This document shows positions 9,771 to 57,056 of a DNA stretch of 64,000 bases, one piece after another. How positions within the stretch are numbered: position 1 is the stretch's first letter; every line of letters starts with the position of its first letter. The translations under genes were made by a program, and so were the position numbers. The notes below the pieces were generated by a model. That model saw only the letters and a list, made by a program, of their open reading frames with translations, did not search any database and had not been told where the DNA came from. This stretch comes from Trypanosoma brucei (taxonomy: Eukaryota), in contig CH464491.1 of NCBI GenBank assembly GCA_000002445.1, forward strand, positions 5,152,001 to 5,216,000. The letters run 5' to 3'.

Positions 9771-9996
9771 CCCCTGGCGATGCCGGCCACCTCAACGTGG
9801 TGCCAGGGTCCAGTACCCCGTATCATCGGGGGAAGCCAAGAGCCAGCAGAGTTCCTTTCATGAGGAACACTGCTGTGCTCCGGCTACGGCATCATACAGC
9901 ACAGGGATCAGCAGCGTCTTGCTGGGACACCGTTCTTCATTTGTCGGTCCCTGGGCACGTGGCTAGCGTGCCATCAGCATTGTCACCCGCACTAAG

Positions 9997-10035
9997 ATGC
10001 TGCTGTCCGGTGATGTGGAAGAGAATCCCGGCCCG
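9997..10035 (+). other. 2A-like self-processing peptide MLLSGDVEENPGP at the ingi ORF N-terminus
   Basis: Exact D-x-E-x-NPGP motif, in the same frame as the downstream endonuclease and RT ORFs. An identical motif lies at 50988-51026 in copy 2. Confidence 0.8.
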
Positions 10036-10590
10036 TCGTTGCGCGGGATGCAGTGGAACTGCGCCGGGCTATTTTAAGGAAAGAGATTAGCACTCCACAA
10101 AACCCTTGTTGATGAGCGGATCGCCTTTTGTCTGTTGAGCGAGACAAGGATGACGCCTGGAGAGGCGGCTTGCTTTAGCGTTTCTGGCTACCAACATCAC
10201 GGAATAGCTCGTAACTGCAAAGGAGGTGGTGTATCAATACTAGTGAGGGGGGACCTACCAGTCGAGACCGGTATGGCCGTTGTTGGTCGCATTGAACAAG
10301 TGCATGCAACAATTCACCTTGCACGTGGAACGGCGCTGACTGTCACGTCGGCATACATCCCACCAAAACACACCTTCACGGCAACTGACCTAGATACGCT
10401 TCTGACAACTGACGGTGCCCAGCTCATCGGTGCAGACGCTAACGCACACGCGTTGGCATGGGATCGCGCGAGCCCACCAAATACCAAGGGTGAAACCCTC
10501 ACACAGTGATGCATTGACAATTAGTTTCTGGTCTGCAACACTGGTGAGTGCACCAGGTACGCGCGCCACCACGGGGAGTCCACCCCTGAT

Positions 10591-13500
10591 GTGACACTGT
10601 CAAGGAATTGCACAGTGTACACGTGGACATCGCTGTATTCTCCCGATAGCGATCACCATCACATATTTTTCGACGTTATCGTTGGAGACGACACAGATGC
10701 ACTGAGTTGCCCGCGGCTTCGAAAGCCCATGTACGCATGGCTAAAAGCTGACTGGAGGAATATCCGTCTCAAGGTTGACGAGCTCTGCAGGAAAATTAAT
10801 AGAGAGAAGAACGTCAACACCCTGGAACAGAAATTGAGCTTCGCCATCCGCATTGCGACGAAGGTCTCCGTCCCCCGTGGCTGCAGAGCAACGCCACCAC
10901 ATTGGACACCTGAGCTCGCGAAACTCGATGAAGAGATCGCTGGATGCGGACCCTCCCACCGAAGGGAAAAGTTTATAGCCACGCGTAAGCAGATCCTGGA
11001 CCGTACCACAAAGAAGAGATGGAGCACGCTATGCTCCAGACTTGCGGTGTCAGACCGCTGCAGTTGGCACATTGTCAAGAAGGTATATCCGCCACGACCA
11101 CTAACCACACCGGCTGTACTTGTTGATAACGCGGCCATCACGGACTACCGTCAAGCTGAGAGGTTCATTAAACTGTACTCGTCCCGCGCAAGAAGGTACC
11201 CCGACTCACACACACCGGCACCAATAAAGACGATAGAGAGTGAGTTCAGTCCCATCACGATGGCTGAACTACAGAGATCGATCAAACTGCTACCGAGTGG
11301 ATCCGCAGCCGGACATGATTGCTTATACAACGAGGCACTACAACATCTCGGTAGAACAGCGTTGAATGTTGTGCTGAGGCTATTCAATGAGAGCCTACGA
11401 ACGGGAGTCGTGCCGCCTGCATGGAAGACTGGTGTTATCATCCCCATCCTGAAGGCCGGAAAAAAGGCGGAGGACCTCGATTCTTACAGGCCTGTGACGC
11501 TCACGAGCTGTCTCTGCAAAGTCATGGAGCGCATAATTGCCGCGAGACTTAGAGACACTGTTGAGTCCCAGCTGACGCCGCAGCAATCAGGCTTTCGCCC
11601 CGGTTGCTCAACGCTCGAACAACTCCTGCACGTCCGCGCTGCCCTCCGCCGTCCCACGCACCAATCTCGTACGGGTGCTGTATTTGTCGACTACGAGAAG
11701 GCATTCGATACAGTAGACCACGACAAAATTGCGAGGGAAATGCACAGAATGAAGGTATCACCCCACATTGTGAAGTGGTGCGTATCATTTCTGAGTAACC
11801 GAACTGGCAGAGTGAGATTCAAGGAGAAGCTTTCCAGAAGCAGAACATTTGAGCGAGGAGTGCCACAAGGAACTGTCCTTGGCCCAATCATGTTCATTAT
11901 TGTCATGAACTCGTTGAGCCAACGCCTTGCAGAAGTGCCGTTACTGCAGCACGGATTCTTTGCAGACGACCTGACGCTACTTGCGAGGCACACAGAGAGG
12001 GATGTCATCAACCACACGCTGCAATGCGGCCTAAACGTGGTGTTACAGTGGTCAAAAGAGTACTTCATGTCTGTCAACGTAGCGAAAACAAAGTGCACAC
12101 TCTTCGGGTGTATAGAGCGTCACCCCCTTACATTACAACTGGACGGCGAAAGAATAGGAGCTGACAGGACACCGAAGCTTCTAGGAGTAACATTCCAGTG
12201 TCTGCAGGGGATGGCAACACATGCGGCCGAGACGAGACGCAAGATGGATTTCAGACTACTGCAGATAGCAGCCATCTCAGCTTCTACATGGGGGCCAAGA
12301 CGACAAGTACTGAGAGCTTTTTATCTAGCACTCGTACAGGCACACACCATGTATGGCATTGAGGTATGGTACTGGGACGCTTCGGAACGAAGTCGCGACC
12401 TCCTTGTATCAGCACAACACAAAGCCAGTCACATCATAGCCGGCATACCGCATGGGACGCGCAAAGAGGACTCTCTGCTGGAAGCAAACCTCCTGCCACT
12501 CAAGACGACCACTCTTGTGCGCAGCATGAAATTCATGCTGATGTGTGAGTCACGAGGCGGATGTTTGCGGCGCAGTGCTGAAGAAGTATACCACAGCAAA
12601 CACCCAGTCAGAGCCCTACATTCCCGCATCATGCGGTCCTATCCCCAACTCCGCATTGAGCCACGCGAGCACCCACTAGAGACATCGACGCTCCGCCACA
12701 GCTGCCGACCGATATTTCACACGCAGATAAAGCCTGTGTGCGCTGATGACCCTGACGATGTCAAAAGGGAGGCTTCCGAAAAGTGGATTGAACGGCATTT
12801 TGCACGGAGGGGGAAGGAGCCACCGCGGCGAGAGCACTACGAATTGTGGACTGATGGATCCGTGTCCCTCGGTGAGAAGTCCGGAGCAACTGCCCTGCTC
12901 TACAGAAGCAACACGCTGATTTGCGCACCCAAAACCGGAGCAGGGGAACTCTCATGCAGTTACAGAGCGGAATGCGTAGCATTAGAGATAGGACTGCAAC
13001 GGCTGCTGAAATGGCTTCCGGCATACAGAAGCACAACGAGCAGGTTGTCCATCTTCTCTGACTCGCTGTCAATGTTAACAGCACTGCAGACAGGCCCCCT
13101 AGCCGTAACGGACCCAATTCTAAGACGACTATGGAGGCTTCTGTTTCAAGTTCAGAGAAGGAAGATACGTATCCGACTGCAATTTGTGTTTGGCCATTGT
13201 GGCGTGAAACGGAATGAGGTTTGTGACGAAATGGCCAAAAAGGCCGCAGATTTACCACAGTTGCGAGACACATGGATCCCCAACATCATTGCTTATGCGA
13301 AGCGAGTGCTTAGGTCGGAAGAAGTCTATGAGAACACTCATAGGTTTGGTATCACGGGCAACCACTTTCCAACAAAACCTAAGAAAGAAGAACTGACGAG
13401 GGAGGAAGAAACGGCACTGGCACGCTTTCGGGTTGGGTCCTCAAGACACTATGGCTGGATGTTGCGAAAGATCAACCCGAGTGTGCCTCCACAGTGCCGA

Positions 13501-14757
13501 TGGTGCAACCCGCAACATGCAGAGATAGGGCCAACAATACAAACAGCCCTACCTGTTGCGACACGCACTCTTCAGAGAACCTCCGAACCGACCAAATGTA
13601 CGGAATGTGATGCCACATACCAATGCCGCTCGAGTGCTGTAACGCACATGGTAAACAAACATGGCTTTGTGCGAGCTGATGCCCTCCGGAGAATCAAATA
13701 CGGCGATGCAACACCTGCAGTGGACATCCCCCCGGAGCCCCCTCCAGTGGTGGCGATCGTTCCTCTACCATCGAGCACACGAGTCCTGATAAGACCGCAG
13801 GTGCTTCATTGTACCCTCTGTGCCTCCAAATTCGCAGTGCCAGGCCGACTATTACACCACCTTAGAACAATACATGGCATAGGCAGCGGTAGTTGCCGCG
13901 TGAAAAGGGGTCGAGAGAACGAAGACTCATTGCAAGGAGATGGTAGAGCTCCAGCAGCGCTAGCCTCTCAGGATACACGGAAGCTGCCGTTTCAATGTGA
14001 CCTGTGCGAGCCGAGCTTCGGTACACGTTCTTCCCTGTCACTACACAAGAAATTCAAACATAAGGGCATGGTGACGGAGGACGGTACCGTGGTGTTGGTG
14101 CAATTCCCTCGTAAGCGTGCCCGTGAGGGAAACGTTGACGTCCCGGGGAAAGGCGAGGTGCAGTGTGGTGTGTGCCAAAAAGTGCTCAGTTGCAGGGACT
14201 CCCTCATCCGACACTGTAAGGCTTTCCACAAAGGTGAGGGAGTGGAGCTTAAATGCAGCAAAAGCACAAAATTGTGTGCCACTGATTCCCCGCATACAAA
14301 CGCATCCATCTTGGTGTGCCCGACATGCGGAAGGCAGTGTGCTAGCAAAACTGGCCTCACCCTACATCAAAAGAAGATGCACGGTATGAAGGTAGAGCGC
14401 GCTGTTACCAGCCAACGCGGCGAATGCGAAGAAACGTCGCTGCACTTGATGAGCTGTCCCGGTTTGAAGGAGTTACGTGTCAGGTTTGCGGTAGAATGTG
14501 AGTGTGTGCAGGATGTATGTTTCTCTAAAAGGCTGGCGCAGTTTCTCATTGCGGTTGAACGGAGCCGGCCGCAGGTGAAGTCCTCACCTAAGGTAACAGT
14601 CATACAACCCACTCTCCCTTCTGCAACTTCCCCCCTTATTGCCGAGTGTGGAGCCAGCAGGAAAAGCACCGGACGCAGGAATAGTCCAGACACCCTCAGA
14701 GACAGAGAGGGTATGCAGTCAACAAGCAACAGAAACAGAAAGAGGGAGAGAGAATAA
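10591..14757 (+). CDS. ingi polyprotein remnant (RT, RNase H-like region, five C2H2 zinc fingers), 1388-aa ORF
   Basis: RT motifs (FVDYEKAFDTVDHDKI, FFADDLTLLA), an RNase H-like region (TDGSVSLGEKSGATALL...) and fingers (CTECDATYQCRSSAVTHMVNKHG, FQCDLCEPSFGTRSSLSLHKKFKHKG, VQCGVCQKVLSCRDSLIRHCKAFHKG, CPTCGRQCASKTGLTLHQKKMHG). The upstream AP-endonuclease segment (10135-10509) is cut off by in-frame stops. Confidence 0.85.
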   Translation: MTLSRNCTVYTWTSLYSPDSDHHHIFFDVIVGDDTDALSCPRLRKPMYAWLKADWRNIRLKVDELCRKINREKNVNTLEQKLSFAIRIATKVSVPRGCRATPPHWTPELAKLDEEIAGCGPSHRREKFIATRKQILDRTTKKRWSTLCSRLAVSDRCSWHIVKKVYPPRPLTTPAVLVDNAAITDYRQAERFIKLYSSRARRYPDSHTPAPIKTIESEFSPITMAELQRSIKLLPSGSAAGHDCLYNEALQHLGRTALNVVLRLFNESLRTGVVPPAWKTGVIIPILKAGKKAEDLDSYRPVTLTSCLCKVMERIIAARLRDTVESQLTPQQSGFRPGCSTLEQLLHVRAALRRPTHQSRTGAVFVDYEKAFDTVDHDKIAREMHRMKVSPHIVKWCVSFLSNRTGRVRFKEKLSRSRTFERGVPQGTVLGPIMFIIVMNSLSQRLAEVPLLQHGFFADDLTLLARHTERDVINHTLQCGLNVVLQWSKEYFMSVNVAKTKCTLFGCIERHPLTLQLDGERIGADRTPKLLGVTFQCLQGMATHAAETRRKMDFRLLQIAAISASTWGPRRQVLRAFYLALVQAHTMYGIEVWYWDASERSRDLLVSAQHKASHIIAGIPHGTRKEDSLLEANLLPLKTTTLVRSMKFMLMCESRGGCLRRSAEEVYHSKHPVRALHSRIMRSYPQLRIEPREHPLETSTLRHSCRPIFHTQIKPVCADDPDDVKREASEKWIERHFARRGKEPPRREHYELWTDGSVSLGEKSGATALLYRSNTLICAPKTGAGELSCSYRAECVALEIGLQRLLKWLPAYRSTTSRLSIFSDSLSMLTALQTGPLAVTDPILRRLWRLLFQVQRRKIRIRLQFVFGHCGVKRNEVCDEMAKKAADLPQLRDTWIPNIIAYAKRVLRSEEVYENTHRFGITGNHFPTKPKKEELTREEETALARFRVGSSRHYGWMLRKINPSVPPQCRWCNPQHAEIGPTIQTALPVATRTLQRTSEPTKCTECDATYQCRSSAVTHMVNKHGFVRADALRRIKYGDATPAVDIPPEPPPVVAIVPLPSSTRVLIRPQVLHCTLCASKFAVPGRLLHHLRTIHGIGSGSCRVKRGRENEDSLQGDGRAPAALASQDTRKLPFQCDLCEPSFGTRSSLSLHKKFKHKGMVTEDGTVVLVQFPRKRAREGNVDVPGKGEVQCGVCQKVLSCRDSLIRHCKAFHKGEGVELKCSKSTKLCATDSPHTNASILVCPTCGRQCASKTGLTLHQKKMHGMKVERAVTSQRGECEETSLHLMSCPGLKELRVRFAVECECVQDVCFSKRLAQFLIAVERSRPQVKSSPKVTVIQPTLPSATSPLIAECGASRKSTGRRNSPDTLRDREGMQSTSNRNRKRERE

Positions 14758-15589
14758 TAAACGAATAACAAAAATCAAAATAAAAGGATTGCTAATTCAC
14801 ATCTTTTGGAGAGTCCGGGGTGGGGGGTTTCTCGCCCCATCTGCTGTATTCCGTTCAACTGCGGAGCTACAACAAAAAATTATAGAGAGTGTGTTAGGCT
14901 GAATAAAAAAGGGAGACTCTGCCACAGTCGCCAGACCGATAGCATCTCAGGGCTCTACGGTGATGGCTGATGGCCGCGCCAGTGGGGGGAAACTCCCACG
15001 AAGGCACGAAGAAAATTTGAAAAATATTTCTGTGTCTTCGTCTTTTCCTTTTTTATTTTGTGTTTTTTCCGTCGGTGATGTAGAGATCGTTTTACCGGTA
15101 GATTTTGTAGGTACATACGCTCGGTTGCCGTTGTGATCTGTTTCGTAATACTTACAGCATGTATGCTTATTGTTATTATGATCATTTTTCCATTTGAGCG
15201 TTTAAAATTGCATATAATCAATAAACATTCCTGTTTTTATGTTAATCGTTATCACTAAATTAAGATTGTTACGAGTTCACTGTTGTTTACGTGCTTTTTT
15301 GTTCTATCATTCGATTTCTCCTGCTTCTTTTATAATTATATTAATATGTAATGAAAACACGCTCCTCTAATTATTACGGTTACTATATTATTATAACGCT
15401 ACACAATATCCACAAGGAAAATAAGTCATGTTCGAAAATGTTTTCTAATTTACACTTTATATGAAAAACTATTGATATTTATCAAGTGTGAGTAATTTTA
15501 GAAAGTTCTTTCAAAAACGAAAACTTTCATAGTTTCCACAATTTTCATATAATTTAGCAAAAATCTTTTAAAAATAATTCTTTAAAGTG

Positions 15590-17071
15590 TTATACTATAA
15601 TAAAAAATGCAAGCAAAAAAGGGGCATTATTAATTAAAAGAAAATTGCTTCCTGTGTTGTTTGTTTTTCCATCTTTATCTTCTTGGTTTGCTTTTTCTAG
15701 TGCTTGTTTTCTTTCCTTGATCAATGTACACTTTTTGTCCTTCTCGCCATCTTTGTTGAAAACGCACTCCTTATCCTTTAGTTTTTCGCATGCTTCTTGG
15801 TCATCTCCTGCTGCATTGCAAACTTTCTCCTTGTCTTGCACACTTGGAACTTTGCACTTAGAATTTTCCGTTGCCTTTTGTAATTCCTTGCCCTTCGCAG
15901 CTAGCTCCTGAACTCTTTGTCTCTCATAGTGCGTTAATATTAGGTTTAGTTGCCTAAGCTCTTTTATCTTACCGAGTTCTGTGTTTCCGTCTTTTTGGTC
16001 TGTGAATAGGCTATTGGGTATTGAGTTGCTGTCAATTGTGGCCCACAATTTGGCTAGGTCATGTTTTTTCGTTGCGCCGTACGTATTGGTAATTGTGTTT
16101 TCCGCTGCAGTTTTGTGGCTGACGTCGCTGTAGTCGTCGGTGTTGTTGAGCAGGCTGTCGTGCACTGCGGCTTTCGTTCGCTTACTTCTTTTCAAGTTGC
16201 TAATTTCTGTTTTTTCTTGCGTGCTGAGCTGTAGCATTCTGCTCTGCAGGTGTTCAGCCAGTGCCTTTCTGGCGTTAAAGTAAAGCACCGGTGTGTTTGA
16301 GGTTGCCTGTTTGTCGAAGGTTTGTAGGTCTTTGGTTGAAAGGTCGGCGCCGTTTGGCGGCAGTTCAAAGAAACCCCCGGCGTAAGGTACGGCCGCGGCT
16401 GTCTGTCCGCCGTTGGTGATACCGCCGCCGCCGGTTTGCCCTTTCGTTAGGGCGCAGTTTTTGCTAGCGTCTGTGTGGCCGCCGGCGGCGCCGGTTATTC
16501 TAGCGGCTTTGAAAAGCGCTTCTGGCGTGTGGCCGTAGTCTTGGGGCGGTTCTGTCGCTCCTTCCGTAACAGCCAGCTTGCATTGCCCGAGGTTGGCCGC
16601 CCCTTGGGTTGCGTCGCCCGTCCCGGCCTCTATAAGACAGCCGTGCGTACCGCTGGACGAATGAGCTTGTGCTGCTATTGTTAGAAATTCAGTTATTCCG
16701 CCGTGAAGGAAATTTGAGTGCGCAGTTGACTTGATTGCCTTGTCTACGCCATCTTTAAGGTCCGCGATAGAGGTCCCTTGTAGTTCGTCTTGAGCTAGCA
16801 GAATTGGAAAGAGCTCCAGTGCTTGTTGCGCCGGCTGCCTGGCTACGTATATGCGCAACTTTAAGTCGGCCACCGCTTGGTTATGTAACTGGTCGAGCTT
16901 GCTACTGACGTCGGCTCGTACTTTCTGAGTCAGGCCTGCCAGCGTCGCTGAAATGTCGCAAAGGGGCTTCCACGCCGCTGCTGAGATGCCGTTGCCGCCT
17001 GTTGCTGCACCGCGCCTGGTCGCTATACCGAGCACTAGCGCAGTTGCTACCATCGCCTGGTGCGGCTTCAT
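15590..17071 (-). CDS. VSG: variant surface glycoprotein, apparently intact (493 aa)
   Basis: Uninterrupted ORF with signal peptide MKPHQAMVATALVLGIATRRGAATG, a cysteine-rich C-terminal domain and a hydrophobic GPI-signal tail TGSNFLLINNAPFLLAFFIIV. Confidence 0.85.
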   Translation of the reverse strand: MKPHQAMVATALVLGIATRRGAATGGNGISAAAWKPLCDISATLAGLTQKVRADVSSKLDQLHNQAVADLKLRIYVARQPAQQALELFPILLAQDELQGTSIADLKDGVDKAIKSTAHSNFLHGGITEFLTIAAQAHSSSGTHGCLIEAGTGDATQGAANLGQCKLAVTEGATEPPQDYGHTPEALFKAARITGAAGGHTDASKNCALTKGQTGGGGITNGGQTAAAVPYAGGFFELPPNGADLSTKDLQTFDKQATSNTPVLYFNARKALAEHLQSRMLQLSTQEKTEISNLKRSKRTKAAVHDSLLNNTDDYSDVSHKTAAENTITNTYGATKKHDLAKLWATIDSNSIPNSLFTDQKDGNTELGKIKELRQLNLILTHYERQRVQELAAKGKELQKATENSKCKVPSVQDKEKVCNAAGDDQEACEKLKDKECVFNKDGEKDKKCTLIKERKQALEKANQEDKDGKTNNTGSNFLLINNAPFLLAFFIIV

Positions 17072-45215: not shown

Positions 45216-46930
45216 TTACAGATTTAGACAGCTTAACAAAAATATTACCGGGATATTTTTACGTGTTAAAATATACCAAACAACAAAATTCTTTAAGAAA
45301 GGGAGGGGGAAAAATTTAAAAAGAAAGGCCGCAAATGCAGAAACCATGAGGGCTAATTGCTTTTCTGCTAGAAAACTGGAGGAGCGGCAACCAGGAGTTA
45401 CTGGACCCTGACCATCAATATAGGTAATCCATCCACAAAAGTCTTTCTTTCCTTGGGGGATCGGGCCAGTTTTTTGGCGCAATTCTTAGAATTTTTGTGC
45501 GGCAGAGCACTTATCTTTTCCCCCTGAAGCTCCTTCTCCTTCTCCTGCTGCTGTGTCTTCTGTTCTATCTTTAGGTTTGCATTTGTTCTCTTTTCATCGT
45601 AATTGCATTTGTTTTTAGGGCATAACTTCTGATTTCCATTGTGCTCGGCACAAAGCTCCGCTGCCTGTTGATCTGACTGTGTCTTTGCTCCAGTTGTTTT
45701 GGGGAAAACAGCTTTGTTGGTTTTCATAGCGTTTATGTTTTCTATTGCCTCCGCTATTGCATATTGTAGTTGATCGTCGTTAATTTGAAACAGTTTTTTG
45801 GTTTGTTTTGTGTTGCCCTGCGTCGGTACCTCCGCGTTTATGGCTTTGATCGCCATTATGTAACCGCCTTCTTCGTTATCTGCGTTGACTTCGAAAAAAC
45901 TTTTAACTAGTTCGTCTGCGTTGTTTGCCTCAGCTGCCGCTTGCCACGCCTGCGCCTTCTGTGCAGCTGTTGCCAGTGCTGCCCGAGTTGTTCTGTCTTT
46001 TAGTAGGCCCTTTACTGCCGTTTCGTCCGTTGGTGTTTTTGTTACTGCTTGCCGCAGCTTGTTTGCTACTGCAGCGCGCTTTTCGCTGAGCGCCTTGAGA
46101 AGGTTATTTGTGACTGCGGCCGTGTGTATCGATGGCATGTTCTGGAAGTCTCCAGCAGCTGCTACCTGTATTAGTCCGTTTAGTGGGTGTATTGGCTGCG
46201 TTACACTGCTGTATGCTGTGTTTGGGTTTTCCGATATTCGGCATTTTGGTGCAGCTGCTCCGGTTGTTTCAGGGATTCCTGTGTCTTGAAGGGTTGTTTT
46301 GATTTCGGTTGCCAGATCTGTGATAACTGCTGTTAGTGTTGTCGTGTCTGCCGTGCCGCACTTTGTGTCAACGATTTTAGCTGCAGCGTTGCCGTCGTTG
46401 TCACCGCCAATGCACCCATTTTGTGCTGTTGGTGTCGTTTGTTGGTGGTTTTGCAGTAAGTGCATCAGTTCATCGACACGGCCTGAAGCGTACATTGCTT
46501 GTCCTACTATTTTGGTGTTCTCGCCTTCCCAGTTGACGAGGTTGCTGGTCGCTTCGTCTAGGTTTGTCGCCGCATACAGCTTGAACGTTTCTGCTGCAAG
46601 CTTCAGCGCCGGCATTTTTAGTGCTGCTAGCGAATGCTGAAGGTACGCGTGCTTGGCGGTGATCACTGCATCTTTGCCATGCTTGATCGAGTCTGCTAGG
46701 GACGCGGCTAAGGCCTTGGCTTTGGACGAAAAGGCACATAACTTTGTCCCAACACTGGCTTTGATTGGGCGTTTGTCGGTCGCGCCTTCGATACCGGTCG
46801 GCAGCGCAAGGACTAGAGCCACTAGTCTCGCCTGTTTGCTGCTCCGCTGTCGCCAGTTGTTAATGCTTTTTCGCTCCACGTCGTCTTTTCCGGCATGTTG
46901 GGCTAGTTCAGTGCCTGTGACTGCAAACAT
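45216..46930 (-). pseudogene. VSG: VSG pseudogene (C-terminal frameshift; aberrant N-terminus)
   Basis: The 510-aa ORF 45398-46930 holds the signal peptide core ARLVALVLALPTGIEGA but lacks a proper initiator just upstream, and ends ...LPILMVRVQ*. The GPI signal SSSFLAEKQLALMVSAFAAFLF is read in another frame at 45216-45482. Confidence 0.75.
45264..45279 (-). promoter_or_regulatory. VSG 3'UTR 16-mer-like element (reverse complement gtgttaaaatatacca)
   Basis: 15 of 16 positions match the reverse complement of TGATATATTTTAACAC, downstream of the VSG C-terminus. Confidence 0.55.
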
Positions 46931-47684: not shown

Positions 47685-47923
<239 letters not shown>

Positions 47924-48229: not shown

Positions 48230-49779
48230 AGGATACTGAAATCACGGCATTTTGTTTTAGCTTTTCCCTTTCCATCAATGAAATCACTTCATCCGCAAAC
48301 AGATTTCTTTCCCTCCTTCGGTTTACCTGGCGCCTTGGAACATTTTTCGGGGTCATTATACTGGCCACAATTAGGGTCTTCTCCGCTTGTTGCTCCTTCT
48401 CCTTTTCCTGCTTGGGTTGCTTGCTGTTCTGCTGCTGTCGCATTCAATTTGCAGTGGGGGCCATCTTTCGCGTCACCTCCCTCCCATTTGCACTCTCCAT
48501 TGTTTTTGCAGTCTGTTGCTTTTTCTATTACTGCGCAGTTTGCCTTTGCTTTTGCCGTTTTGGGGCGCGCTCTTGTCGTGTTTTGGCGTTTCTATTTGTT
48601 GCTGGCGCTCGCTGTAGAGCAGTGTTTGCACTAGTTGCTTTTTGGCTTTCAGCTGTCTTGCCGCCTCCTTCCTTATTTGCACTGCTTGCTCGTGCTTGCG
48701 CAGTTGCTTTGCTATTGCAGAGAGTCCGTTGATCCACGGGATGTCCGTCACTTTTGCCGTGGCGCCCGTGCCGAGGTCAGTGTATTTTACACACATGCCT
48801 CCTCCCTGTTTTCCGTCGCAGTTCCCGTTTATGGTCTTTCCTAGTGTCGCTGCTCCCGAACGTCGAGCAATGAGCGCTGTAACCGCTGCTACCGAGTCTG
48901 CAGTAGTTCGCTCGTTAGCTGCGTTTTGGAGTTGAGGTCGCATAAGTTAAGGGCAGCCCCGATTGCTGCGGTTCCTGGGTCGGTGGAGGCGGTCCATTTG
49001 TTCGTTAGTCCTGTTTGGTATTCGCACGCTTTGACTTCGTTGTTGCTTGCACTGTTGTCGGCGATGCACACGCATATCAGGGTACCGGCGACCGTTTTGG
49101 CTGGGTTGGCTGCTGCCGTCCCCGAGCATGTGTTGGTTCGGCTGCCTCCCGTTGATGTGAACAGCTTTGTACCAGCCACCGGTGGTTCTGCTGCTGGTGT
49201 TTCTCCGTAGACGTGCTGGTTTATGAGTGTTTTGATCTTATCATCTGTCAGTAGATCGCTTTCCGGGGCTTTGGCTAATGCTAACGTTTCTATTGCTTCA
49301 GCCTCGGCGGCTAGTCTAGTGACTGCCGGTCGTATTGACAGACGCTGGTCCTGTGTTAGTCCCTGTAGTTTGTGCTTTTTTAAGACGTTTTGGTCTCCGG
49401 TTTTCTTTAATAGCGGTTCAGCCGCCTTTTTCCAGATCGGCCACTTTCCGGGCCAATCTTTGTGGTCCGTGAAATCTGCTTGCGGAAAGTCACGCGGCTT
49501 TTCCCTGGCGTCTGGCTGCCGGAAAATGTCAAGCCAGACGCTATCTGCCAGCGACATATTTAGCTCTAGCAGATCTGCCAGGTCTGTATCGAGCGCTGTC
49601 TCCGCCGATTCCAGCTTTGCGCGTCCATTTGCTAACTCGATTAAGCCACAGAGGGCTCCTCTCTCCCGCTCATTGTCTCCCGCCGCTACGTTTCCTCGCG
49701 CGGTGTCTGTTGTTAGAACTATGGCAATAAGTATCGCCACTTGTAGATGACTGCCGCGTCTTTGTGGCAGTGGCGGCAT
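48230..49779 (-). pseudogene. VSG: VSG pseudogene (multiple frameshifts)
   Basis: N-terminal ORF 48889-49779 (signal peptide region HLQVAILIAIVLTTDTARG, then ...ERGALCGLIELANG...) and a middle ORF at 48473-48943 (GGGMCVKYTDLGTGATAK...). The C-terminal and GPI-coding remnant at 48230-48420 is homologous to 5110-5300 but out of frame. Confidence 0.75.
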
Positions 49780-50763
49780 TACGACGTTTACTAGTTTCTT
49801 CTTTTTAAAGGATGTGCGTTCAAGCTGAGTCGTTGGTTTTTTTGTTACAGTTTGGTGCTATAGAAGATTGCCATTTGCTGTTCAGTGCCTTGCCAACCTT
49901 TTAGAGCAGCCACAGCTAGAGTTCTTTTGTTTAACGCTGAATCGGTAACTATTATAAAATGGAAGTGCTTATCTTTTGTGCTGGTTTAGTAAGATGATCT
50001 TGCCGCATTAAAGAAGATAAATGTGACCTTCTATGGGCAATCTCCATAAGTTAAAAACTAATTGAGCTTTTGGTGTCTTTTTTACACCTACAGCAGCCAA
50101 CGCATCCTTTGAACACTGGATTTATTAAATTACACTCACAAACGTCTTAAATATTGGTTTTAGGTATATTTTAACTCTTAATTCTAATATACGTCACTCT
50201 ATATCTATAACTATTGCATCTTTCCTTCACATTCCCAATTTCCTACCTGTTTGCTTTTAAAAAAGTTTAGATAGGTCTGTAAATGTAAAAAAATTAGAAT
50301 TTATGATTTTCACTCTCTTCTATCAACTTATTCCTCCTATGTTTTTCCTGAACTTCGAAGAACAAGATAACACTGTTGCTTCTCGCACACGTGGCCCCTC
50401 TTTCCCTCTTTTTTTTTGGATGGTGATACTGAGTTCCTCAGACGTTCGAAATTGGAAATTTATGTGCTGACGCGTACTGCTAATCTTGGTCTTGCGGCTA
50501 GCCTTATATAAGATACGCTTGTTTTAAACTGTTTTATCGTCGGCCCGTATATCAACACGGATTTTTTGGTATCGCCATTAATTTTCTATACTTTATAGAA
50601 ATAGGCTGCGGTTCCATCTGCGTGAATTATTCCTCCCTCATTGCTTCTGCCAGTCGGGGGTTTGGTCGGCTGCCTACTCCTAAGTATTCACCGTACCCGC
50701 CGTGCTATATGCATTGCCTGCGCCGCTTCGATGTGTTTCGCCGTGGTCTAGTTTTGGCTTTAT

Positions 50764-53700
50764 CCCTCGCGATGCCGGCCACCTCAACGTGGTGCCAGGG
50801 TCCAGTACCCCGTATCATCGGGGAAAGCCAAGAGCCAGCAGAGTTCCTTTCATGAGGAACACTGCTGTGCTCCGGCTACGGCATCATACAGCACAGGGAT
50901 CAGCAGCGTCTTGCTGGGACACCGTTCTTCATTTGTCTGTCCCTGGGGACGTGCCAGCGTGCCATCAACAGTATCATCCGCACTAAGATGCTGCTGTCCG
51001 GTGATGTGGAAGAGAATCCCGGACCGTCGTTGCGCGGGATGCAGTGGAACTGCGCCGGGGTATCTCAAGGAAAGAGATTAGCACTCCACAAAACCCTTGT
51101 TGATGAGCGGATCGCCTTTTGTCTGTTGAGCGAGACAAGGATGACGCCTGGAGAGGCGGCTTGCTTTAGCGTTGCTGGCTACCAACATCACGGAATAGCT
51201 CGTAACTTCAAAGGAGGTGGTGTATCAATACTAGTGAGGGGGGACCTACCAGTCGAGACCGGTATGGCCGTTGTTGGTCGCATTGAACAAGTGCATGCAA
51301 CAATTCACCTTGCACGTGGAACGGCGCTGACTGTCACGTCGGCATACATCCCACCAAAACACACCTTCACGGCAACTGACCTAGATACGCTTCTGACAAC
51401 TGACGGTGCCCAGCTCATCGGTGCAGACGCTAACGCACACGCGTTGGCATGGGATCGCGCGAGCCCACCAAATACAAGGGGTGAAACCCTCACACAGTGG
51501 TGCATTGACAATTAGTTTCTGGTCTGCAACACTGGTGAGTGCACCAGGTACGCGCGCCACCACGGGGAGTCCACCCCTGATGTGACACTGTCAAGGAATT
51601 GCACAGTGCACACGTGGACATCGCTGTATTCTCCCGATAGCGATCACCATCACATATTTTTCGACGTTATCGTTGGAGACGACACAGATGCACTGAGTTG
51701 CCCGCGGCTTCGAAAGCCCATGTACGCATGGCTAAAAGCTGACTGGAGGAATATCCGTCTCAAGGTTGACGAGCTCTGCAGGAAAATTAATAGAGAGAAG
51801 AACGTCAACACCCTGGAACAGAAATTGAGCTTCGCCATCCGCATTGCGACGAAGGTCTCCGTCCCCCGTGGCTGCAGAGCAACGGCATCACATTGGACAC
51901 CTGAGCTCGCGAAACTCGATGAAGAGATCGCTGGATGCGGACCCTCCCACCGAAGGGAAAAGTTGGTAGCCACGCGTAAGCAGATCCTGGACCGTACCAC
52001 AAAGAAGAGATGGAGCACGCTATGCTCCAGACTTGCGGTGTCAGACCGCTGCAGTTGGCACATTGTCAAGAAGGTATATCCGCCACGACCACTAACCACA
52101 CCGGCTGTACTTGTTGATAACGCGGCCATCACGGACTACTGTCAAGCTGAGAGGTTCATTAAACTGTACTCGTCCCGCGCAAGAAGGCACCCCGACTCAC
52201 ACCCACCGGCACCAATAAAGACGATAGCGAGTGAGTTCAGTCCCATCACGATGGCTGAACTACGGAAATCGATCAAACAACTTCCGAGTGGATCCACAGC
52301 CGGACCTAATTGCTTATACAACGAGGCACTACAACATCTCGGTAGAACAGCGTTGAATGTTGTTCTGAGGCTATTCAATGAGAGCCTACGAACGGGAGTC
52401 GTGCCGCCTGCATGGAAGACTGGTGTTATCATCCCCATCCTGAAGGCCGGAAAAAAGGCGGAGGACCTCGATTCTTACAGGCCAGTGACGCTCACGAGCT
52501 GTCTCTACAAAGTCATGGAGCGCATAATTGCCGCGAGACTTAGAGACACTGTTGAGTCCCAGCTGACGCCGCAGCAATCAGGCTTTCGCCCCGGATGCTC
52601 AACGCTCGAACAACTCCTGCACGTCCGCGCTGCCCTCCGCCGTCCCACGCACCAATCTCGTACGGGTGCTGTATTTGTCGACTACGAGAAGGCATTCGAT
52701 ACAGTAGACCACGACAAAATTGCGAGGGAAATGCACAGAATGAAGGTATCACCCCACATTGTGAAGTGGTGCGTATCATTTCTGAGTAACCGAACTGGCA
52801 GAGTGAGATTCAAGGAGAAGCTTTCCAGAAGCAGAACATTTGAGCGAGGAGTGCCACAAGGAACTGTCCTTGGCCCAATCATGTTCATTATTGTCATGAA
52901 CTCGTTGAGCCAACGCCTTGCAGAAGTGCCGTTACTGCAGCACGGATTCTTTGCAGACGACCTGACGCTACTTGCGAGGCACACAGAGAGGGATGTCATC
53001 AACCACACACTACAATGCGGTCTAAACGTGGTGTTACAGTGGTCAAAAGAGTACTTCATGTCTGTCAACGTAGCGAAAACAAAGTGCACACTCTTCGGGT
53101 GTATAGAGCGTCACCCCCTTACATTACAACTGGACGGCGAAAGAATAGGAGCTGACAGGACACCGAAGCTTCTAGGAGTAACATTCCAGTGTCTGCAAGG
53201 GATGGCAACACATGCGGCCAAAACGAGACGCAAGATGGATTTCAGACTACTGCAGATAGCAGCCATCTCAGCTTCTACATGGGGGCCAAGACGACAAGTA
53301 CTGAGAGCTTTTTATCTAGCACTCGTACAGGCACACACCATGTATGGCATTGAGGTATGGTACTGGGACGCTTCGGAACGAAGTCGCGACCTCCTTGCAT
53401 CAGCACAACACAAAGCCAGTCGCATCATAGCCGGCATACCACATGGGACGCGCAAAGAGGACTCTCTGCTGGAAGCAAACCTCCTGCCACTCAAGACGAC
53501 CACTCTTGTGCGCAGCATGAAATTCATGCTGATGTGTGAGTCACGAGGCGGATGTTTGCGGCGCAGTGCTGAATAAGTATACCACAGCAAACACCCAGTC
53601 AGAGTCTTACATTCCCGCATCATGCGGTCCTATCCCCAACTCCGCATTGAGCCACGCGAGCAACCACTAGAGACATCGACGCTCCGCCACAGCTGCCGAC

Positions 53701-56028
53701 CGCTATTTCACACGCAGATAAAGCCTGTGTGCGCTGATGACCCTGACGATGTCAAAAGGGAGGCTTCCGAAAAGTGGATTGAACGGCATTTTGCACGGAG
53801 GGGGAAGGAGCCACCGCGGCGAGAGCACTACGAATTGTGGACTGATGGATGCGTGTCCCTCGGTGAGAAGTCCGGAGCAACTGCCCTGCTCTATAGAAAC
53901 AACACGCTGATTTGCGCACCCAAAACTGGAGCAGGGGAACTCTCATGCAGTTACAGAGCGGAATGCTTAGCATTAGAGATAGGACTGCAACGGCTGCTGA
54001 AATGGCTTCCGGCATACAGAAGCACAACGAGCAGGTTGTCCATCTTCTCTGACTCGCTGTCAATGTTAACAGCACTGCAGACAGGCCCCCTAGCCGTAAC
54101 GGACCCAATTCTAAGACGACTATGGAGGCTTCTGTTTCAAGTTCAGAGAAGGAAGATACGTATCCGACTGCAATTTGTGTTTGGCCATTGTGGCGTGAAA
54201 CGGAATGAGGTTTGTGACGAAATGGCCAAAAAGGCCGCAGATTTACCACAGTTGCGAGACACATGGATCCCCAACATCATTGCTTATGCGAAGCGAGTGC
54301 TTAGGTCGGAAGAAGTCTATGAGAACACTCATAGGTTTGGTATCACGGGCAACCACTTTCCAACAAAACCTAAGAAAGAAGAACTGACGAGGGAGGAAGA
54401 AACGGCACTGGCACGCTTTCGGGTTGGGTCCTCAAGACACTATGGCTGGATGTTGCGAAAGATCAACCCGAGTGTGCCTCCACAGTGCCGATGGTGCAAC
54501 CCGCAACATGCAGAGATAGGGCCAACAATACAAACAGCCCTACCTATTGCGACACGCACTCTTCAGAGAACCTCCGAACCGACCAAATGTACGGAATGTG
54601 ATGCCACATACCAATGCCGCTCGAGTGCTGTAACGCACATGGTAAACATGGCTTTGTGCGAGCTGATGCCCTCAGGAGGATCAAATACGGCGATGCAACA
54701 CCTGCAGTGGACATCCCCCCGGAGTCCCCTCCAGTGGTGGCGATCGTTCCTCTACCATTCGAGCACACGAGTCCAGATGAGACCGCAGGTGCTTCATTGT
54801 ACCCTCTGTACCTCCAAATTCGCAGTGCCAGGCCGACTATTACACCACCTTAGAACAATACATGGCATAGGCAGCGGTAGTTTGCCGCGTGAAAAGGGGG
54901 CGAGAGAACGAGGACTCAGTGCAAGGAGATGGTAGAGCTCCAGCAGCGCCAGCCTCTCAGGATACACGGAAGCTGCCGTTTCAATGTGACCTGTGCGAGC
55001 CGAGCTTCGGTACACGTTCTTCCCTGTCACTACACAAAAAATTCAAACATAAGAGCATAGTGACGGAGGACGGTACCGTGGTGGTGGTGCAACTCCCTCG
55101 TAAGCGTGCCCGTGAGGGAAACGTTGACGTCCCGGGGAAGGGCGAGGTGCAGTGTGGTGTGTGCCAAAAAGTGCTCAGTTGCAGGGACTCCCTCATCCGA
55201 CACTGTAAGGCTTTCCACAAAGGTGAGGGAGTCGAGCTTAAATGCAGCAAAAGCACAAAATTGTGTGCCACTGATTCCCCGCATACAAACACATACATGT
55301 ACATCCATCTTGGTGTGCCCGACATGCGGAAGGCAGTGTGCTAGCAAAACTGGCCTCACCCTACATCAAAAGAAGATGCACGGTATGAAGGTAGAGCGCG
55401 CTGTTACCAGCCAACGCGGCGAATGCGAAGAAACGTCGCTGCACTTGATGAGCTGTCCCGGTTTGAAGGAGTTACGTGTCAGGTTTGCGGTAGAAGGTGA
55501 GTGTGTGCAGGATGTATGTTTCTCTAAAAGGCTGGCGCAGTTTCTCATTGCGGTTGAACGGAGCCGGCCACAGGTGAAGTCCTCACCTAAGGTAACAGTC
55601 ATACAACCCACTCTCCCTTCTGCAACTTCCCCCCTTATTGCCGAGTGTGGAGCTAGCAGGAAAAGCACCGGACGCAGGAATAGTCCAGACACCCTTAGAG
55701 ACAGAGGAGGTATGCAGTCAACAAGCAACAGAAACAGAAAGAGGGGGAGAGAATAATAAACGAATAACAAAAATCAAAACAAAAGGATTGGTAATTGACA
55801 TCTTTGAGAGAGTCCGGGGTGGGGGGTTTCTCGCCCCATCTGCTGTATTCCGTTCAACTTCGGAGCTACAATAAAAAATTATAGAGAGTGTGTTAGGGTG
55901 AATAAAAAAGGGAGACTCTGCCACAGTCGCCAGACCGATAGCATATCAGTGCTCTACGGTGATGGCTGATGGCCGCGCCAGTGGGGGGAAACTCCCACGA
56001 AGGCACGAAGAAAATTCCAAAAAAAAAA
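50764..56028 (+). mobile_element. ingi: ingi non-LTR retrotransposon, copy 2, degenerate, 3' poly(A) of about 10 nt
   Basis: Co-linear with copy 1 at about 97-98 % identity from ccctcgcgatgccggccacctcaacgtgg to ...cacgaaggcacgaagaaaattccaaaaaaaaaa. The ORF is broken by a nonsense change at about 53577 (GAA to TAA) and by later indels. Confidence 0.9.
50988..55756 (+). pseudogene. ingi polyprotein pseudogene (AP endonuclease, RT, RNase H-like region and zinc fingers split into several ORFs)
   Basis: ORFs 50988-51515 (2A plus endonuclease), 51582-53576 (RT), 53622-54935, and 54889-55344 / 55106-55756 (zinc fingers) are co-linear with the copy 1 ORF but sit in different frames or are separated by stops. 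Confidence 0.85.
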
Positions 56029-56030
56029 TG

Positions 56031-57056
56031 CCTCTGTTTTTCTGCTTCGACGAGCATTTTTTGGGCAGCAAGAAACTGTCCCACCCAGGGGAGTTTTGTA
56101 ATATCCTTGTTCCGTACGACGCCATTGTAGTCTATGCAAGCGGATGCTTCGTCTTGTCCGTCGAAGTCGTTGTTGGTTTCTCCGCCTCCTATCACGTTCT
56201 CTGTGTTTGCGCCGGTGGATGGTGCTGTGCCAAACAAACTTGCGAATTGGGCAAGCGCCGCGTCGATGGTTGATGGTGTCACATGCCGCTGGGTTGCTGA
56301 GGGTGGACACTTTGTTACTATCGTTTGTAGTGCTCTCTTAGCGCTCTGTGCTGTGTCTCCACCGCTGTTTTTGTAGCTTTGTTCGTTGCCGCCTGCCACA
56401 CACAGGTTGGTCGCACCCGCTGAGGAACACAGGCAAGCCAAATCCGATGCTAGGCTGGCTCCCTGCTCGGCCGGACTGTCCTTTTTGCACCTGTTCGCGT
56501 GGTTGCCATATATGCTGTCGTCCGTAGTCTCCTTGTTTGTATCACCCGTTAGCGCTTGCTTCAGGTGGCTTCTTACACCGCCAGCCAAAGCTGTTATTGC
56601 TTGTTGTGCATCGTTGAGCCGTTTTCTGGTTTCGGCTGCTGCTGTTCGAATTTTGTCCATCGCACATTGTACACGCTGCCGGGTTTCTTCGTCTCCGATA
56701 CGTAAATATTTTGTTTTTGCTTCTGGTGTATGTGCCTCCAGCAAACTTTTCTTTTTTTGCTCCCACGCTTGCTTGTTGAACGTCGAAAAAATTTTTGCTG
56801 TGAAATTAACTGTTGGCAGCGTTACAATGTACAAATCCTCTATGTCGTCTGGCGGTTCAGGTGTGTCGCTCCGCGTTAAGTCTGTTGTGTTTGGTTCCGA
56901 TGTGCACAGCTTGTAAATTTCGCAAAATACAGAGAATTCTTTGCCGTTCTTTGTGGTCGCTGCGGCGCCAAGTTGAGCTGCCAATAGTAGAAGGGCCAAT
57001 GCTTTTGATATGGCGAATATAGCGCATCCCGACATTGCATACCCGTATCTGATCAT
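56031..57056 (-). pseudogene. VSG: VSG N-terminal-domain fragment, 3' end truncated by ingi copy 2
   Basis: ORF 55893-57056 begins with signal peptide MIRYGYAMSGCAIFAISKALALLLLAAQLGAAA and has a VSG N-domain (DLACLCSSAGATNLCVAGG). After ...KMLVEAEKQRH the reading runs straight into the ingi poly(A) tail (FFFGIFFVPSWEF), and no C-terminal domain follows. Confidence 0.8.

What the first reader, a model, noticed from the sequence alone, without database searches (positions are those of the whole stretch)
50764..57056. ingi copy 2 interrupts a VSG: the N-terminal domain with signal peptide runs directly into the ingi poly(A) tail
VSG ORF 56031-57056 (minus) is in frame up to ...KMLVEAEKQRH. The reading then continues through the reverse complement of the ingi 3' end (ggaaactcccacgaaggcacgaagaaaattccaaaaaaaaaa), giving FFFGIFFVPSWEF. 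No C-terminal VSG domain is found on the other side of the element (49780-50763). The retrotransposon therefore marks a breakpoint where the remainder of the VSG has been lost or replaced. This is consistent either with an insertion followed by ectopic recombination between ingi copies or with 5'-truncating target-primed insertion accompanied by a deletion. The ingi is antisense to array transcription.
Basis: seen in the sequence. Interest (0 to 1): 0.55.

Follow-up and report, generated by a model that had tools for sequence, protein, structure and literature searches.

The report
VSG pseudogene truncated by recombinant ingi
A full-length but dead ingi retrotransposon in a Trypanosoma brucei silent surface-antigen (VSG) array cuts off a VSG gene right after its N-terminal domain, and the two sides of the element do not belong together; this is an ordinary, already understood kind of subtelomeric scar.

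Summary
The window is a VSG array of T. b. brucei TREU927 (5.26-Mb record, presumably chromosome 11). A type-B VSG (57056..56029, minus strand) is open from its ATG to codon 342/343. It then runs into the A10 tail of a full-length 5,265-bp ingi (50764..56028, plus strand). Relatives in other strains (90% and 88% identical) continue with ...QQLDANK... and a C-terminal domain. That continuation is nowhere in the window.

The 984 bp left of the ingi lie upstream of the next VSG. There is no 12-bp target-site duplication: 5 of 12 bases match, against a null mean of 5. Control ingi copies gave 12/12 twice, with the same method.

Both junctions look like normal ingi target sites. The 5' flank has the GG at -19/-18 seen upstream of control elements. 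The VSG-side target, rebuilt from a paralogue, also ranks high.

The two ingi copies in the window are mosaics of each other, with a change-point at about 54643 (p&lt;0.002).

Best reading (about 0.55): two ordinary insertions, followed by ingi-ingi homologous recombination that removed or exchanged what lay between. Insertion with a target deletion remains possible (about 0.2). The element is not 5'-truncated.

This is a known kind of event and of low interest.

The parts
56029..57056 (-). VSG-Z: type-B VSG N-terminal domain with hydrophobic N-terminal leader. It is open from the ATG (57056) to codon 342 plus 2 bases of codon 343. The rest of the gene is missing.
   Evidence: Pfam VSG_B 4-340/352, E=2.3e-38. 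It is 90% identical to VSG 1125.4768 and 88% to VSG 1271, both of which continue past this point. The alignment to T. equiperdum locus L001 stops exactly at 56029.
55893..56028 (-). Spurious ORF extension (FFFGIFFVPSWEF...). It is the reverse complement of the ingi tail and 3' end read in the VSG frame up to the first stop.
50764..56028 (+). ingi copy 2: full-length (5,265 bp) Tbingi non-LTR retrotransposon, coding-dead.
   Evidence: 97.85% identical to ingi copy 1 over 5,265 aligned positions. It is 95.8-97.3% similar, end to end, to ingi copies of T. b. equiperdum. It carries two in-frame stops and frameshifts.
50764..50842 (+). Conserved 5' signature of ingi/RIME (Pr77 region), present from its first base.
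   Evidence: Identical start (CCCTSGCGATGCCGGCCACCTCAAC) in 9 elements. The 79-bp signature is described in PMC2323293.
50856..51512 (+). ingi ORF segment 1: 2A-like peptide (MLLSGDVEENPGP from 50988) and AP-endonuclease domain. It ends at an in-frame stop.
   Evidence: Pfam Exo_endo_phos_2 / Exo_endo_phos; sequence
51516..53573 (+). ingi ORF segment 2: reverse transcriptase. It ends at an in-frame stop.
   Evidence: Pfam RVT_1, E=1.7e-45
53577..54932 (+). ingi ORF segment 3: RNase H. A frameshift follows.
   Evidence: Pfam RNase_H, E=1e-8
55064..55753 (+). ingi ORF segment 4, in another frame: C2H2 zinc-finger region.
   Evidence: Weak Pfam zf-C2H2 hit, E=0.006, below the curated cut-off
54514..54643 (+). 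Change-point inside the ingi. To its left, ingi2 and ingi1 are each other's closest relatives (1.5% divergence). To its right they are no closer than any two copies (4.1%).
   Evidence: Maximum chi-square 16.5 at 54643, exceeded by 0 of 500 permutations. Difference counts per 250 bp are.
56019..56028 (+). ingi poly(A) tail (A10), abutting the VSG.
56029..56040 (+). Orphan 3' target-site copy, TGCCTCTGTTTT. It has no partner at the 5' junction.
   Evidence: The site rebuilt with the paralogue's upstream bases ranks in the top 1.5% for the ingi target profile.
50738..50763 (+). 5' junction flank: an orphan 12-mer, TTTTGGCTTTAT (50752..50763), preceded by a motif-like stretch with GG at -19/-18.
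   Evidence: The profile score is in the top 3.9% of window 26-mers.
49780..50763 (-). Left flank: non-coding region upstream of the next VSG. It holds no VSG C-terminal sequence, no 3'-UTR 16-mer on the VSG strand and no 70-bp-type (TAT)n run.
48889..49779 (-). Next VSG in the array: type B, with its own ATG and leader. The ORF breaks after 296 aa, so it is a pseudogene.
   Evidence: Pfam VSG_B 2-264/352, E=1.1e-43
9772..15024 (+). ingi copy 1: second full-length ingi in the same orientation. It also lacks a target-site duplication and is the recombination or gene-conversion partner of copy 2.

Best explanation
ingi copy 2 is the product of two ordinary ingi insertions followed by homologous recombination between the two elements.

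One ingi inserted by target-primed reverse transcription into a complete type-B VSG, at the end of its N-terminal domain. That event made the poly(A)/VSG junction at 56028|56029. This step is inferred from a clean junction at a target-like site.

Another ingi, in the same orientation, inserted in non-coding DNA about 1 kb upstream of the next VSG. That event made the 5' junction at 50763|50764.

Recombination between the two 5.2-kb repeats then joined the left flank of the second element to the right flank of the first. The possible routes are intrachromatid deletion, unequal sister exchange, or an ectopic exchange or gene conversion with another subtelomere. The result is one chimeric element. 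The VSG's last few N-terminal-domain residues, hinge, C-terminal domain, GPI signal and 3' UTR were removed, along with whatever else lay between.

What remains is a non-functional VSG fragment. It could contribute only as a donor of N-terminal-domain segments.

Shown: the junction, the missing continuation, the missing TSD, the full-length element and the mosaic ingi bodies. Inferred: the order of events and the recombination itself.
For: 1. The junction is exact, and the VSG is otherwise intact up to it. Homologues and a paralogous locus continue beyond it.
2. There is no TSD. The cognate flanks match at 5/12. Cross-pairs with ingi1 match at 6-7/12. The null from 72 non-cognate pairs has mean 5.0 and maximum 9. 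The same procedure gives 12/12 for control elements L006 and L008+, 11/12 with one indel for L003+ and 8/12 for L002. A 12-bp TSD is the rule for Tbingi/TbRIME (PMC3820030, PMC2323293).
3. The 5' flank looks like a real ingi target. In 7 control elements, G occurs at -19 in 6 of 7 and at -18 in 5 of 7, and T at -11 in 6 of 7. Both window ingis have GG at -19/-18 and T at -12/-11. Their profile scores are in the top 3.2% and 3.9% of all window 26-mers. An insertion-coupled deletion would put the 5' end at an arbitrary site.
4. The VSG-side target, rebuilt from the paralogue (TGGCGTTGAGTTGC|TGCCTCTGTTTT), ranks in the top 1.5%.
5. TSD-less control ingis also carry the motif (L004 3.4%, L008- 2.5%). 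The same is reported for about half of T. cruzi L1Tc/NARTc elements (PMC5814959).
6. The ingi bodies have recombined. ingi1 and ingi2 are nearest relatives over the 5' 3.9 kb (60 differences, against 91-174 to other copies). Over the 3' 1.4 kb they are not (57 differences, against 54-79). The change-point is at 54643, p<0.002.
7. ingi/RIME recombination causing rearrangements in T. brucei is documented (PMC2854126).
Against: - The target profile rests on only 7 control flanks, three of which lack a TSD themselves. It was defined after looking at them. The percentile ranks (1.5-4%) are suggestive, not decisive. Three of the 7 controls score poorly in leave-one-out tests.
- The mosaic pattern between ingi1 and ingi2 is patchy. 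Gene conversion without any crossover explains it equally well, so it shows that recombination acts on these copies, not that a crossover produced these flanks.
- Neither reciprocal partner was found. That means a VSG-Z C-terminal half in front of an ingi 5' end, or TTTTGGCTTTAT behind an ingi tail. The rest of the genome could not be searched.
- If the deletion was local, two ingi insertions within about 1-2 kb are required.
Confidence: 0.55

Rival explanations
1. A single ingi insertion accompanied by a target-site deletion. The endonuclease nicked the VSG at codon 343 and primed reverse transcription there. The full-length cDNA was then joined to a top-strand break about 1 kb or more upstream of the nick, instead of 12 bp downstream. 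The VSG 3' part and the intergenic DNA were deleted, and no TSD was made.
For: The geometry fits. The lost DNA lies on the side of the first nick where such deletions occur, the 3' junction is a clean poly(A) junction at a target-like site, and there is no TSD. It needs only one insertion. ingi1 shows a comparable picture, with a missing piece of roughly cassette-internal size. Target deletions at insertion are well known for human L1 (my own knowledge, not tested here).
Against: The 5' junction sits at a site that carries the upstream GG(-19/-18)/T-rich pattern at the correct offset. The same holds for ingi1. The ranks are 3.9% and 3.2%, so jointly about 1e-3 if independent. That is not expected for an arbitrary second break. 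No such event has been documented for ingi in the papers I could read.
Confidence: 0.2
2. Assembly artefact. Two true loci, each with its own ingi, were joined through the 5.2-kb repeat when the reference chromosome was assembled. The flank mismatch, and part of the mosaicism, would then not be biological.
For: ingi copies are 96-98% identical over 5.2 kb, longer than Sanger reads. Both ingis in the window lack TSDs. The record is the TREU927 reference.
Against: TSD-less ingis are also seen in an independent T. b. equiperdum assembly (L003-, L004), so no artefact is required. The two copies differ at 117-119 positions, which would help an assembler keep them apart. No direct evidence of misassembly was obtained.
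Confidence: 0.08
3. The VSG was already a C-terminally truncated fragment lying next to the 49780..50763 sequence, and the ingi inserted exactly at that pre-existing boundary, its TSD having since decayed. Alternatively, a later unrelated deletion removed the DNA next to the ingi 5' end.
For: VSG arrays are rich in fragments and pseudogenes; about 85% of the repository is pseudogenes (PMC3553974).
Against: Either version requires a coincidence of boundaries to the base: at the poly(A) end, or at base 1 of the element. The element is only 2-4% diverged from its relatives, so a 12-bp TSD should have at most about one change, not 7 of 12.
Confidence: 0.04
4. Simple insertion of an ingi into a VSG, with the C-terminal half still present on the other side.
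For: None beyond the clean 3' junction.
Against: No VSG continuation in any frame left of 50764 or anywhere else in the window. No TSD.
Confidence: 0.01

Closest known systems
Tbingi / TbRIME elements of T. brucei that lack target-site duplications (ingi4 subclade; Bringaud et al. 2004, as cited in PMC3820030 and PMC2323293)
   Same: It is a full-length 5.2-kb element with the 79-bp 5' signature, an APE-RT-RNase H-zinc finger ORF and a poly(A) tail. It is preceded by a conserved-looking upstream pattern. It is one of many degenerate copies, and it lies in a subtelomeric VSG array.
   Different: Nothing essential. This copy has no 12-bp TSD, and its flanks come from different parts of a VSG cassette.
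TSD-less L1Tc/NARTc elements of T. cruzi (about half of all copies, still preceded by the endonuclease pattern; PMC5814959 citing Bringaud 2006)
   Same: The signature is the same: a canonical upstream pattern without a TSD, which implies exchange between elements after insertion.
   Different: Different species and ingi subclade (ingi6 against ingi4), and a different upstream consensus.
Recombination-mediated deletions between LINE or Alu copies, and L1 insertion-associated target deletions, in mammals (my own knowledge)
   Same: A chimeric element remains with non-matching flanks and the intervening DNA is lost. The rival mechanism (deletion at insertion) also has its model here.
   Different: The host, the element clade and the genomic context (hemizygous, highly recombinogenic subtelomeres) all differ. 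No pre-event allele is available here.
VSG pseudogenes and fragments of the silent archive
   Same: It is a VSG N-terminal domain without a C-terminal domain, GPI signal or 3' UTR. It sits in an array of mostly defective VSGs and is potentially usable only by segmental gene conversion (PMC3553974, PMC12975129).
   Different: The cause of truncation is visible and exact (a retrotransposon tail), rather than frameshifts or stops.

Membership tests
Tbingi (ingi-clade non-LTR retrotransposon) | Conserved 77-79-bp 5' signature, starting at the first base | tested here: met
   50764 begins CCCTCGCGATGCCGGCCACCTCAACGTGGTGCCAGGG, the same start as 8 other elements. No Rfam family matched this region.
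Tbingi (ingi-clade non-LTR retrotransposon) | About 5.2 kb long, with an endonuclease, reverse transcriptase, RNase H and zinc-finger ORF | tested here: met
   5,265 bp. Pfam Exo_endo_phos(_2), RVT_1, RNase_H and a weak zf-C2H2 hit. The ORF is broken by 2 stops and by frameshifts.
Tbingi (ingi-clade non-LTR retrotransposon) | 3' poly(A) tail | tested here: met
   A10 at 56019..56028
Tbingi (ingi-clade non-LTR retrotransposon) | 12-bp target-site duplication | tested here: not met
   5/12 identity, equal to the null mean. Controls gave 12/12, 12/12, 11/12 with one indel, and 8/12. This is a mark of a pristine insertion rather than of family membership. Two of 6 complete control copies lack it too.
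Tbingi (ingi-clade non-LTR retrotransposon) | Conserved pattern upstream of the 5' direct repeat (endonuclease site) | tested here: inconclusive
   GG at -19/-18 and T at -12/-11, as in most controls. The profile rank is in the top 3.9%. The profile comes from only 7 flanks, and the published consensus could not be read.
Type-B variant surface glycoprotein gene | VSG_B N-terminal domain | tested here: met
   PF13206 positions 4-340/352, E=2.3e-38
Type-B variant surface glycoprotein gene | N-terminal signal peptide | not tested
   A hydrophobic leader (AIFAISKALALLLLAAQLGAAA) is seen in the sequence and conserved in 5 homologues. No signal-peptide predictor was available.
Type-B variant surface glycoprotein gene | C-terminal domain and GPI-anchor signal | tested here: not met
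   Absent after codon 342. Homologue P0001 has a weak Trypan_glycop_C match beyond that point (19.9 bits, below the 21.4 cut-off). There is no counterpart in the window.
Type-B variant surface glycoprotein gene | Conserved 3'-UTR 16-mer TGATATATTTTAACAC downstream | tested here: not met
   Seven minus-strand copies with up to 2 mismatches lie downstream of other VSGs. None lies between 45278 and 58777.
Type-B variant surface glycoprotein gene | 70-bp repeat upstream | tested here: not met
   No (TAT)n-type run between 47922 and 61343
Repeat-mediated (ingi-ingi) recombination product | Flanks that each carry an orphan target site and do not continue each other | tested here: met
Repeat-mediated (ingi-ingi) recombination product | Chimeric element body | tested here: inconclusive
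   There is a significant change-point relative to ingi1 at 54643. Gene conversion without a crossover would look the same.
Repeat-mediated (ingi-ingi) recombination product | Pre-recombination allele or reciprocal product elsewhere | not testable with these tools
   No T. brucei genome can be searched by DNA here.

The most novel reading that the evidence does not exclude
The boundary between the N- and C-terminal domains of this type-B VSG subfamily contains a good ingi endonuclease target (TGGCGTTGAGTTGC|TGCNTCTGTTTT, conserved in a T. equiperdum paralogue). If so, ingi insertion there, followed by ingi-ingi recombination, could be a recurrent route. It would detach N-terminal-domain modules from their C-terminal domains and splice segments of different VSG arrays together. 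The ingi elements would then be the seams of archive reshuffling rather than passive passengers.
Probability: 0.06. Interest if true: 0.4.

Novelty: already known. Interest (0 to 1): 0.13.

Why it matters
It matters little beyond annotation.

- The 387-aa ORF at 55893..57056 should be annotated as a VSG N-terminal fragment fused to antisense ingi sequence, not as a gene.
- It is a clean worked example that ingi elements in silent VSG arrays can mark rearrangement seams. Synteny on the two sides of an ingi should therefore not be assumed.
- If the same junctions were surveyed genome-wide, the share of TSD-less ingis inside arrays would give a rough measure of how much retroelement-mediated recombination shapes the antigen archive.

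Tried and rejected
1. Locating the source locus and orthologous loci by exact protein look-up failed. The VSG-Z ORF, both neighbouring VSG ORFs and an intact VSG are not on record. Only the cluster look-up identified the source as TREU927.
2. Three key papers are not held: Bringaud 2004, Bringaud 2009, and Marcello and Barry 2007. The published Tbingi upstream consensus therefore could not be used. I derived a small profile from 7 control flanks instead.
3. An exact scan of metagenome contigs for the ingi 5' signature gave 0 hits.
4. An Rfam scan of the ingi 5' end gave no family.
5. I tested whether the ingi1 5' flank and the ingi2 3' flank are a split TSD, because both contain TGCCT. The match is 7/12, within the null. 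The ingi1 flank is also a different VSG-like fragment whose positions overlap those of VSG-Z, so it cannot be the continuation.
6. I first read the fragment left of ingi1 as an A-type VSG. Pfam gives no hit, and the weak BLASTP matches are to type-B VSGs. I now call it only 'VSG-like, B-like'.
7. There is a 16-mer-like AGGTATATTTTAACTC on the plus strand at 50162 in the left flank. It has 3 mismatches, and about 1 such match per window is expected by chance. I treat it as chance.
8. I considered arguing that the ingi 5' end sits where a 70-bp repeat 'should' be. I dropped this as evidence, because VSG-Z itself has no such repeat in 1.7 kb of upstream sequence.
9. The T. equiperdum contig L001 initially looked like an 'uninterrupted version' of the locus. 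It is a 78%-identical paralogue with retroposon insertions of its own. It was useful only for placing the break and rebuilding the target.
Full report
**What the window is.**
All long VSG-type ORFs lie on the minus strand. Pfam identifies them as type-A or type-B VSG N-terminal domains, several with the VSG C-terminal domain. Four of them are identical to annotated VSGs XP_829792-XP_829795 of Trypanosoma brucei brucei TREU927, on a 5,261,801-bp record, presumably chromosome 11. The window is therefore a silent subtelomeric VSG array of the reference strain. Seven copies of the VSG 3'-UTR 16-mer lie on the minus strand, and (TAT)n runs typical of 70-bp repeats occur 774-1126 bp upstream of several VSG start codons. 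Two full-length ingi retrotransposons lie on the plus strand: ingi1 at 9772..15024 and ingi2 at 50764..56028. They are 97.85% identical over 5,265 aligned positions.

**Checking the observation.**
The minus-strand ORF 55893..57056 (387 aa) is real. Residues 22-342 match Pfam VSG_B positions 4-340 of 352 (E=2.3e-38), so almost the whole N-terminal domain is present and open.

The VSG-derived DNA ends ...GAAAAACAGAGGCA at window base 56029. Ten T follow, which are the reverse complement of the ingi A10 tail at 56019..56028, and then the ingi 3' end. That reads FFFGIFFVPSWEF... in the VSG frame.

The break is confirmed independently. The nearest relatives are VSG 1125.4768 (90% identity), VSG 1271 of Lister 427 (88%) and three others. 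All align over all 342 residues and then continue ...EAEKQRQQLDANKVILQGLQLQ... into a cysteine-rich C-terminal region. A T. equiperdum contig (L001) carries a paralogue that aligns at 78% from window 58243 down to exactly 56029. It then goes on with gcaactcaacgccaataaag..., which is VSG sequence.

The continuation is absent from the window. All three minus-strand frames of 49700..50763 are full of stops and show nothing VSG-like before the next VSG's own ATG. tblastn of the homologues' remainders gives only 30-44% matches to the C-terminal domains of other VSGs. The 984 bp left of the ingi are unique in the window and lead into another type-B VSG with its own start codon and leader (48889..49779).

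One correction is needed. ingi2 begins at base 1 of the conserved 5' signature, so it is not 5'-truncated.

**State of the element.**
ingi2 has the expected endonuclease, reverse transcriptase, RNase H and weak zinc-finger matches, and a 2A-like MLLSGDVEENPGP start. Its reading frame is broken by two in-frame stops and by frameshifts. It is a dead copy. ingi1 is also interrupted, though less so.

**Target-site duplication, with positive controls.**
Tbingi/TbRIME insertions are flanked by a 12-bp duplication and preceded by a conserved motif (PMC3820030; PMC2323293). To test my reading of the flanks I fetched seven further loci holding ingi copies, from T. b. equiperdum and T. b. gambiense, through ingi proteins. 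I extracted every element end.

| Flank pair | Matches out of 12 |
|---|---|
| L006 (control) | 12 |
| L008+ (control) | 12 |
| L003+ (control) | 11, with one indel |
| L002 (control) | 8 |
| L003- and L004 (controls) | no recognisable TSD |
| 72 non-cognate pairs (null) | mean 5.0, maximum 9 |
| ingi2 | 5 |
| ingi1 | 5 |
| cross-pairs between the two window ingis | 6 and 7 |

Neither orphan 12-mer recurs in the window with one mismatch or fewer at any relevant place. So there is no duplication. The element's 2-4% divergence from its relatives is far too small for a duplication to have decayed.

**Are the two junctions real insertion sites?**
In the seven control 5' flanks, G occupies -19 in 6 of 7 and -18 in 5 of 7. 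T occupies -26 and -11 in 6 of 7, and G occupies -25 and -22 in 5 of 7. This holds for TSD-less controls as well, matching the report that TSD-less L1Tc/NARTc elements are still preceded by the endonuclease pattern (PMC5814959).

Both window ingis have GG at -19/-18 and T at -12/-11. With a profile built from the controls only, their 5' flanks rank in the top 3.2% (ingi1) and 3.9% (ingi2) of all 26-mers of the window.

For the VSG side, the upstream half of the target is lost. Taking it from the paralogue gives TGGCGTTGAGTTGC|TGCCTCTGTTTT, which ranks in the top 1.5%. These ranks rest on a very small, post hoc profile, so I treat them as moderate evidence only. Their direction is consistent: each junction looks like the product of a normal endonuclease-dependent insertion at that very spot, yet the two spots are unrelated.

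**Recombination inside the elements.**
Differences between ingi1 and ingi2 are unevenly spread. There are none in 54014..54513, then 6-12 per 250 bp up to the tail. In a nine-copy alignment, the two window ingis are each other's closest relatives over the 5' 3.9 kb (60 differences, against 91-174 to other copies). Over the 3' 1.4 kb they are no closer than any pair (57, against 54-79). A maximum chi-square test puts the change-point at window 54643, with none of 500 permutations reaching the observed value. The pattern is patchy, with further divergent blocks at the 5' 500 bp and at 52264..52513. It demonstrates gene conversion or recombination among these copies, but it does not by itself prove a crossover.

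**Best explanation.**
Two canonical insertions occurred: one into an intact VSG at the end of its N-terminal domain, and one in non-coding DNA upstream of what is now the next VSG. Homologous recombination between the two co-oriented 5.2-kb repeats followed. This was either a deletion within the array or an exchange or conversion with another subtelomere. It left a single chimeric ingi whose left and right flanks come from different sites. That ingi and RIME recombine and cause rearrangements in T. brucei is established (PMC2854126), and ingis are known residents of VSG arrays (PMC3553974). I put this at about 0.55.

**Rivals.**
- A single insertion coupled to a target-site deletion fits the geometry and needs only one insertion. 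It does not predict a target-like 5' flank (about 0.2).
- Misassembly through the repeat cannot be excluded without reads (about 0.08).
- A pre-existing VSG fragment or a later deletion would need base-exact coincidences (about 0.04).
- A simple insertion is refuted.

**Comparison with the known, and novelty.**
The element meets every defining feature of Tbingi except the duplication, which marks an undisturbed insertion rather than family membership. The VSG meets the N-terminal-domain criterion and fails the criteria for the C-terminal domain, the 3'-UTR 16-mer and the 70-bp repeat, so it is a fragment. TSD-less ingi-clade elements, retroelement-mediated rearrangements and truncated VSG pseudogenes are all described, and the locus lies in the published reference genome. 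I rate it as already known in kind, with low interest (0.13).

The most novel reading not excluded is that the domain boundary of this VSG subfamily is a recurrent ingi target, and that ingi-ingi recombination systematically shuffles array segments. I give that about 0.06.

**Dead ends.**
- Exact-protein look-ups of window ORFs found nothing.
- Three key papers were not held.
- The Rfam scan and the metagenome scan were empty.
- My first label of the fragment next to ingi1 as A-type was wrong.
- A 16-mer-like site in the left flank is at chance level.
- The idea that the ingi replaced a 70-bp repeat is not supportable, because VSG-Z itself has none upstream.

Noticed in passing
window 8945-9771 (minus strand) and 15025-15589: ingi copy 1 is also a breakpoint. 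Its 5' end abuts a divergent VSG-like fragment that starts at about the middle of an N-terminal domain. That fragment has weak BLASTP matches to type-B VSGs and no Pfam hit. Its 3' end lies about 560 bp downstream of the stop of the intact VSG 15590..17071, next to a degenerate 70-bp-repeat-like stretch. No TSD (5/12).
   Followed up: partly
window 51264-54643 compared with 10270-13656: The two ingi copies, 41 kb apart, share a nearly identical internal tract. It includes 500 bp with no difference at 54014..54513, while their ends are as diverged as unrelated copies. This is evidence of gene conversion between ingi copies within one array.
   Followed up: yes
window 4848-4886 and 45080-45110: Short interstitial telomere-type repeats, (TAACCC)5-6 on the plus strand, which read TTAGGG in the VSG sense. 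They lie about 150 bp downstream of the 3'-UTR 16-mers of two VSGs (5107..6651 and 45398..46930). This suggests that these cassettes descend from telomere-adjacent copies.
   Followed up: no
L001 5633-6338 (T. equiperdum contig CZPT02000274.1): The 67%-identical paralogue of the truncated VSG is itself interrupted. A degenerate ingi-related element with a recognisable 5' signature and a decayed 2A-like motif sits in sense orientation inside the GPI-signal coding region. About 650 bp further on lies the 3' end of an antisense ingi.
   Followed up: partly
window 50988-51026 (and 9997-10035 in ingi1): The ingi ORF opens with a 2A-like peptide, MLLSGDVEENPGP, as described for L1Tc and related elements (PMC5814959).
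   Followed up: no
window 47923-61342: There is no 70-bp-repeat-type (TAT)n run in this 13-kb stretch. As a result three consecutive VSG cassettes (48889..49779, VSG-Z, and the region upstream of VSG-Z) lack the usual upstream recombination repeat. Other cassettes in the window have it 774-1126 bp upstream of the ATG.
   Followed up: partly
window 15030-15589: The intact VSG 15590..17071 (XP_829793) has no recognisable 3'-UTR 16-mer (3 mismatches or fewer) between its stop codon and the ingi1 tail. Most other VSGs in the window have one 60-170 bp downstream of the stop.
   Followed up: no
L002 3904-5667 and 8513-13767 (T. b. equiperdum CM010675.1): Here an ingi lies in the same orientation as the neighbouring VSG, with a degenerate TSD (8/12). 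Antisense orientation of ingi relative to array VSGs is therefore not universal.
   Followed up: no
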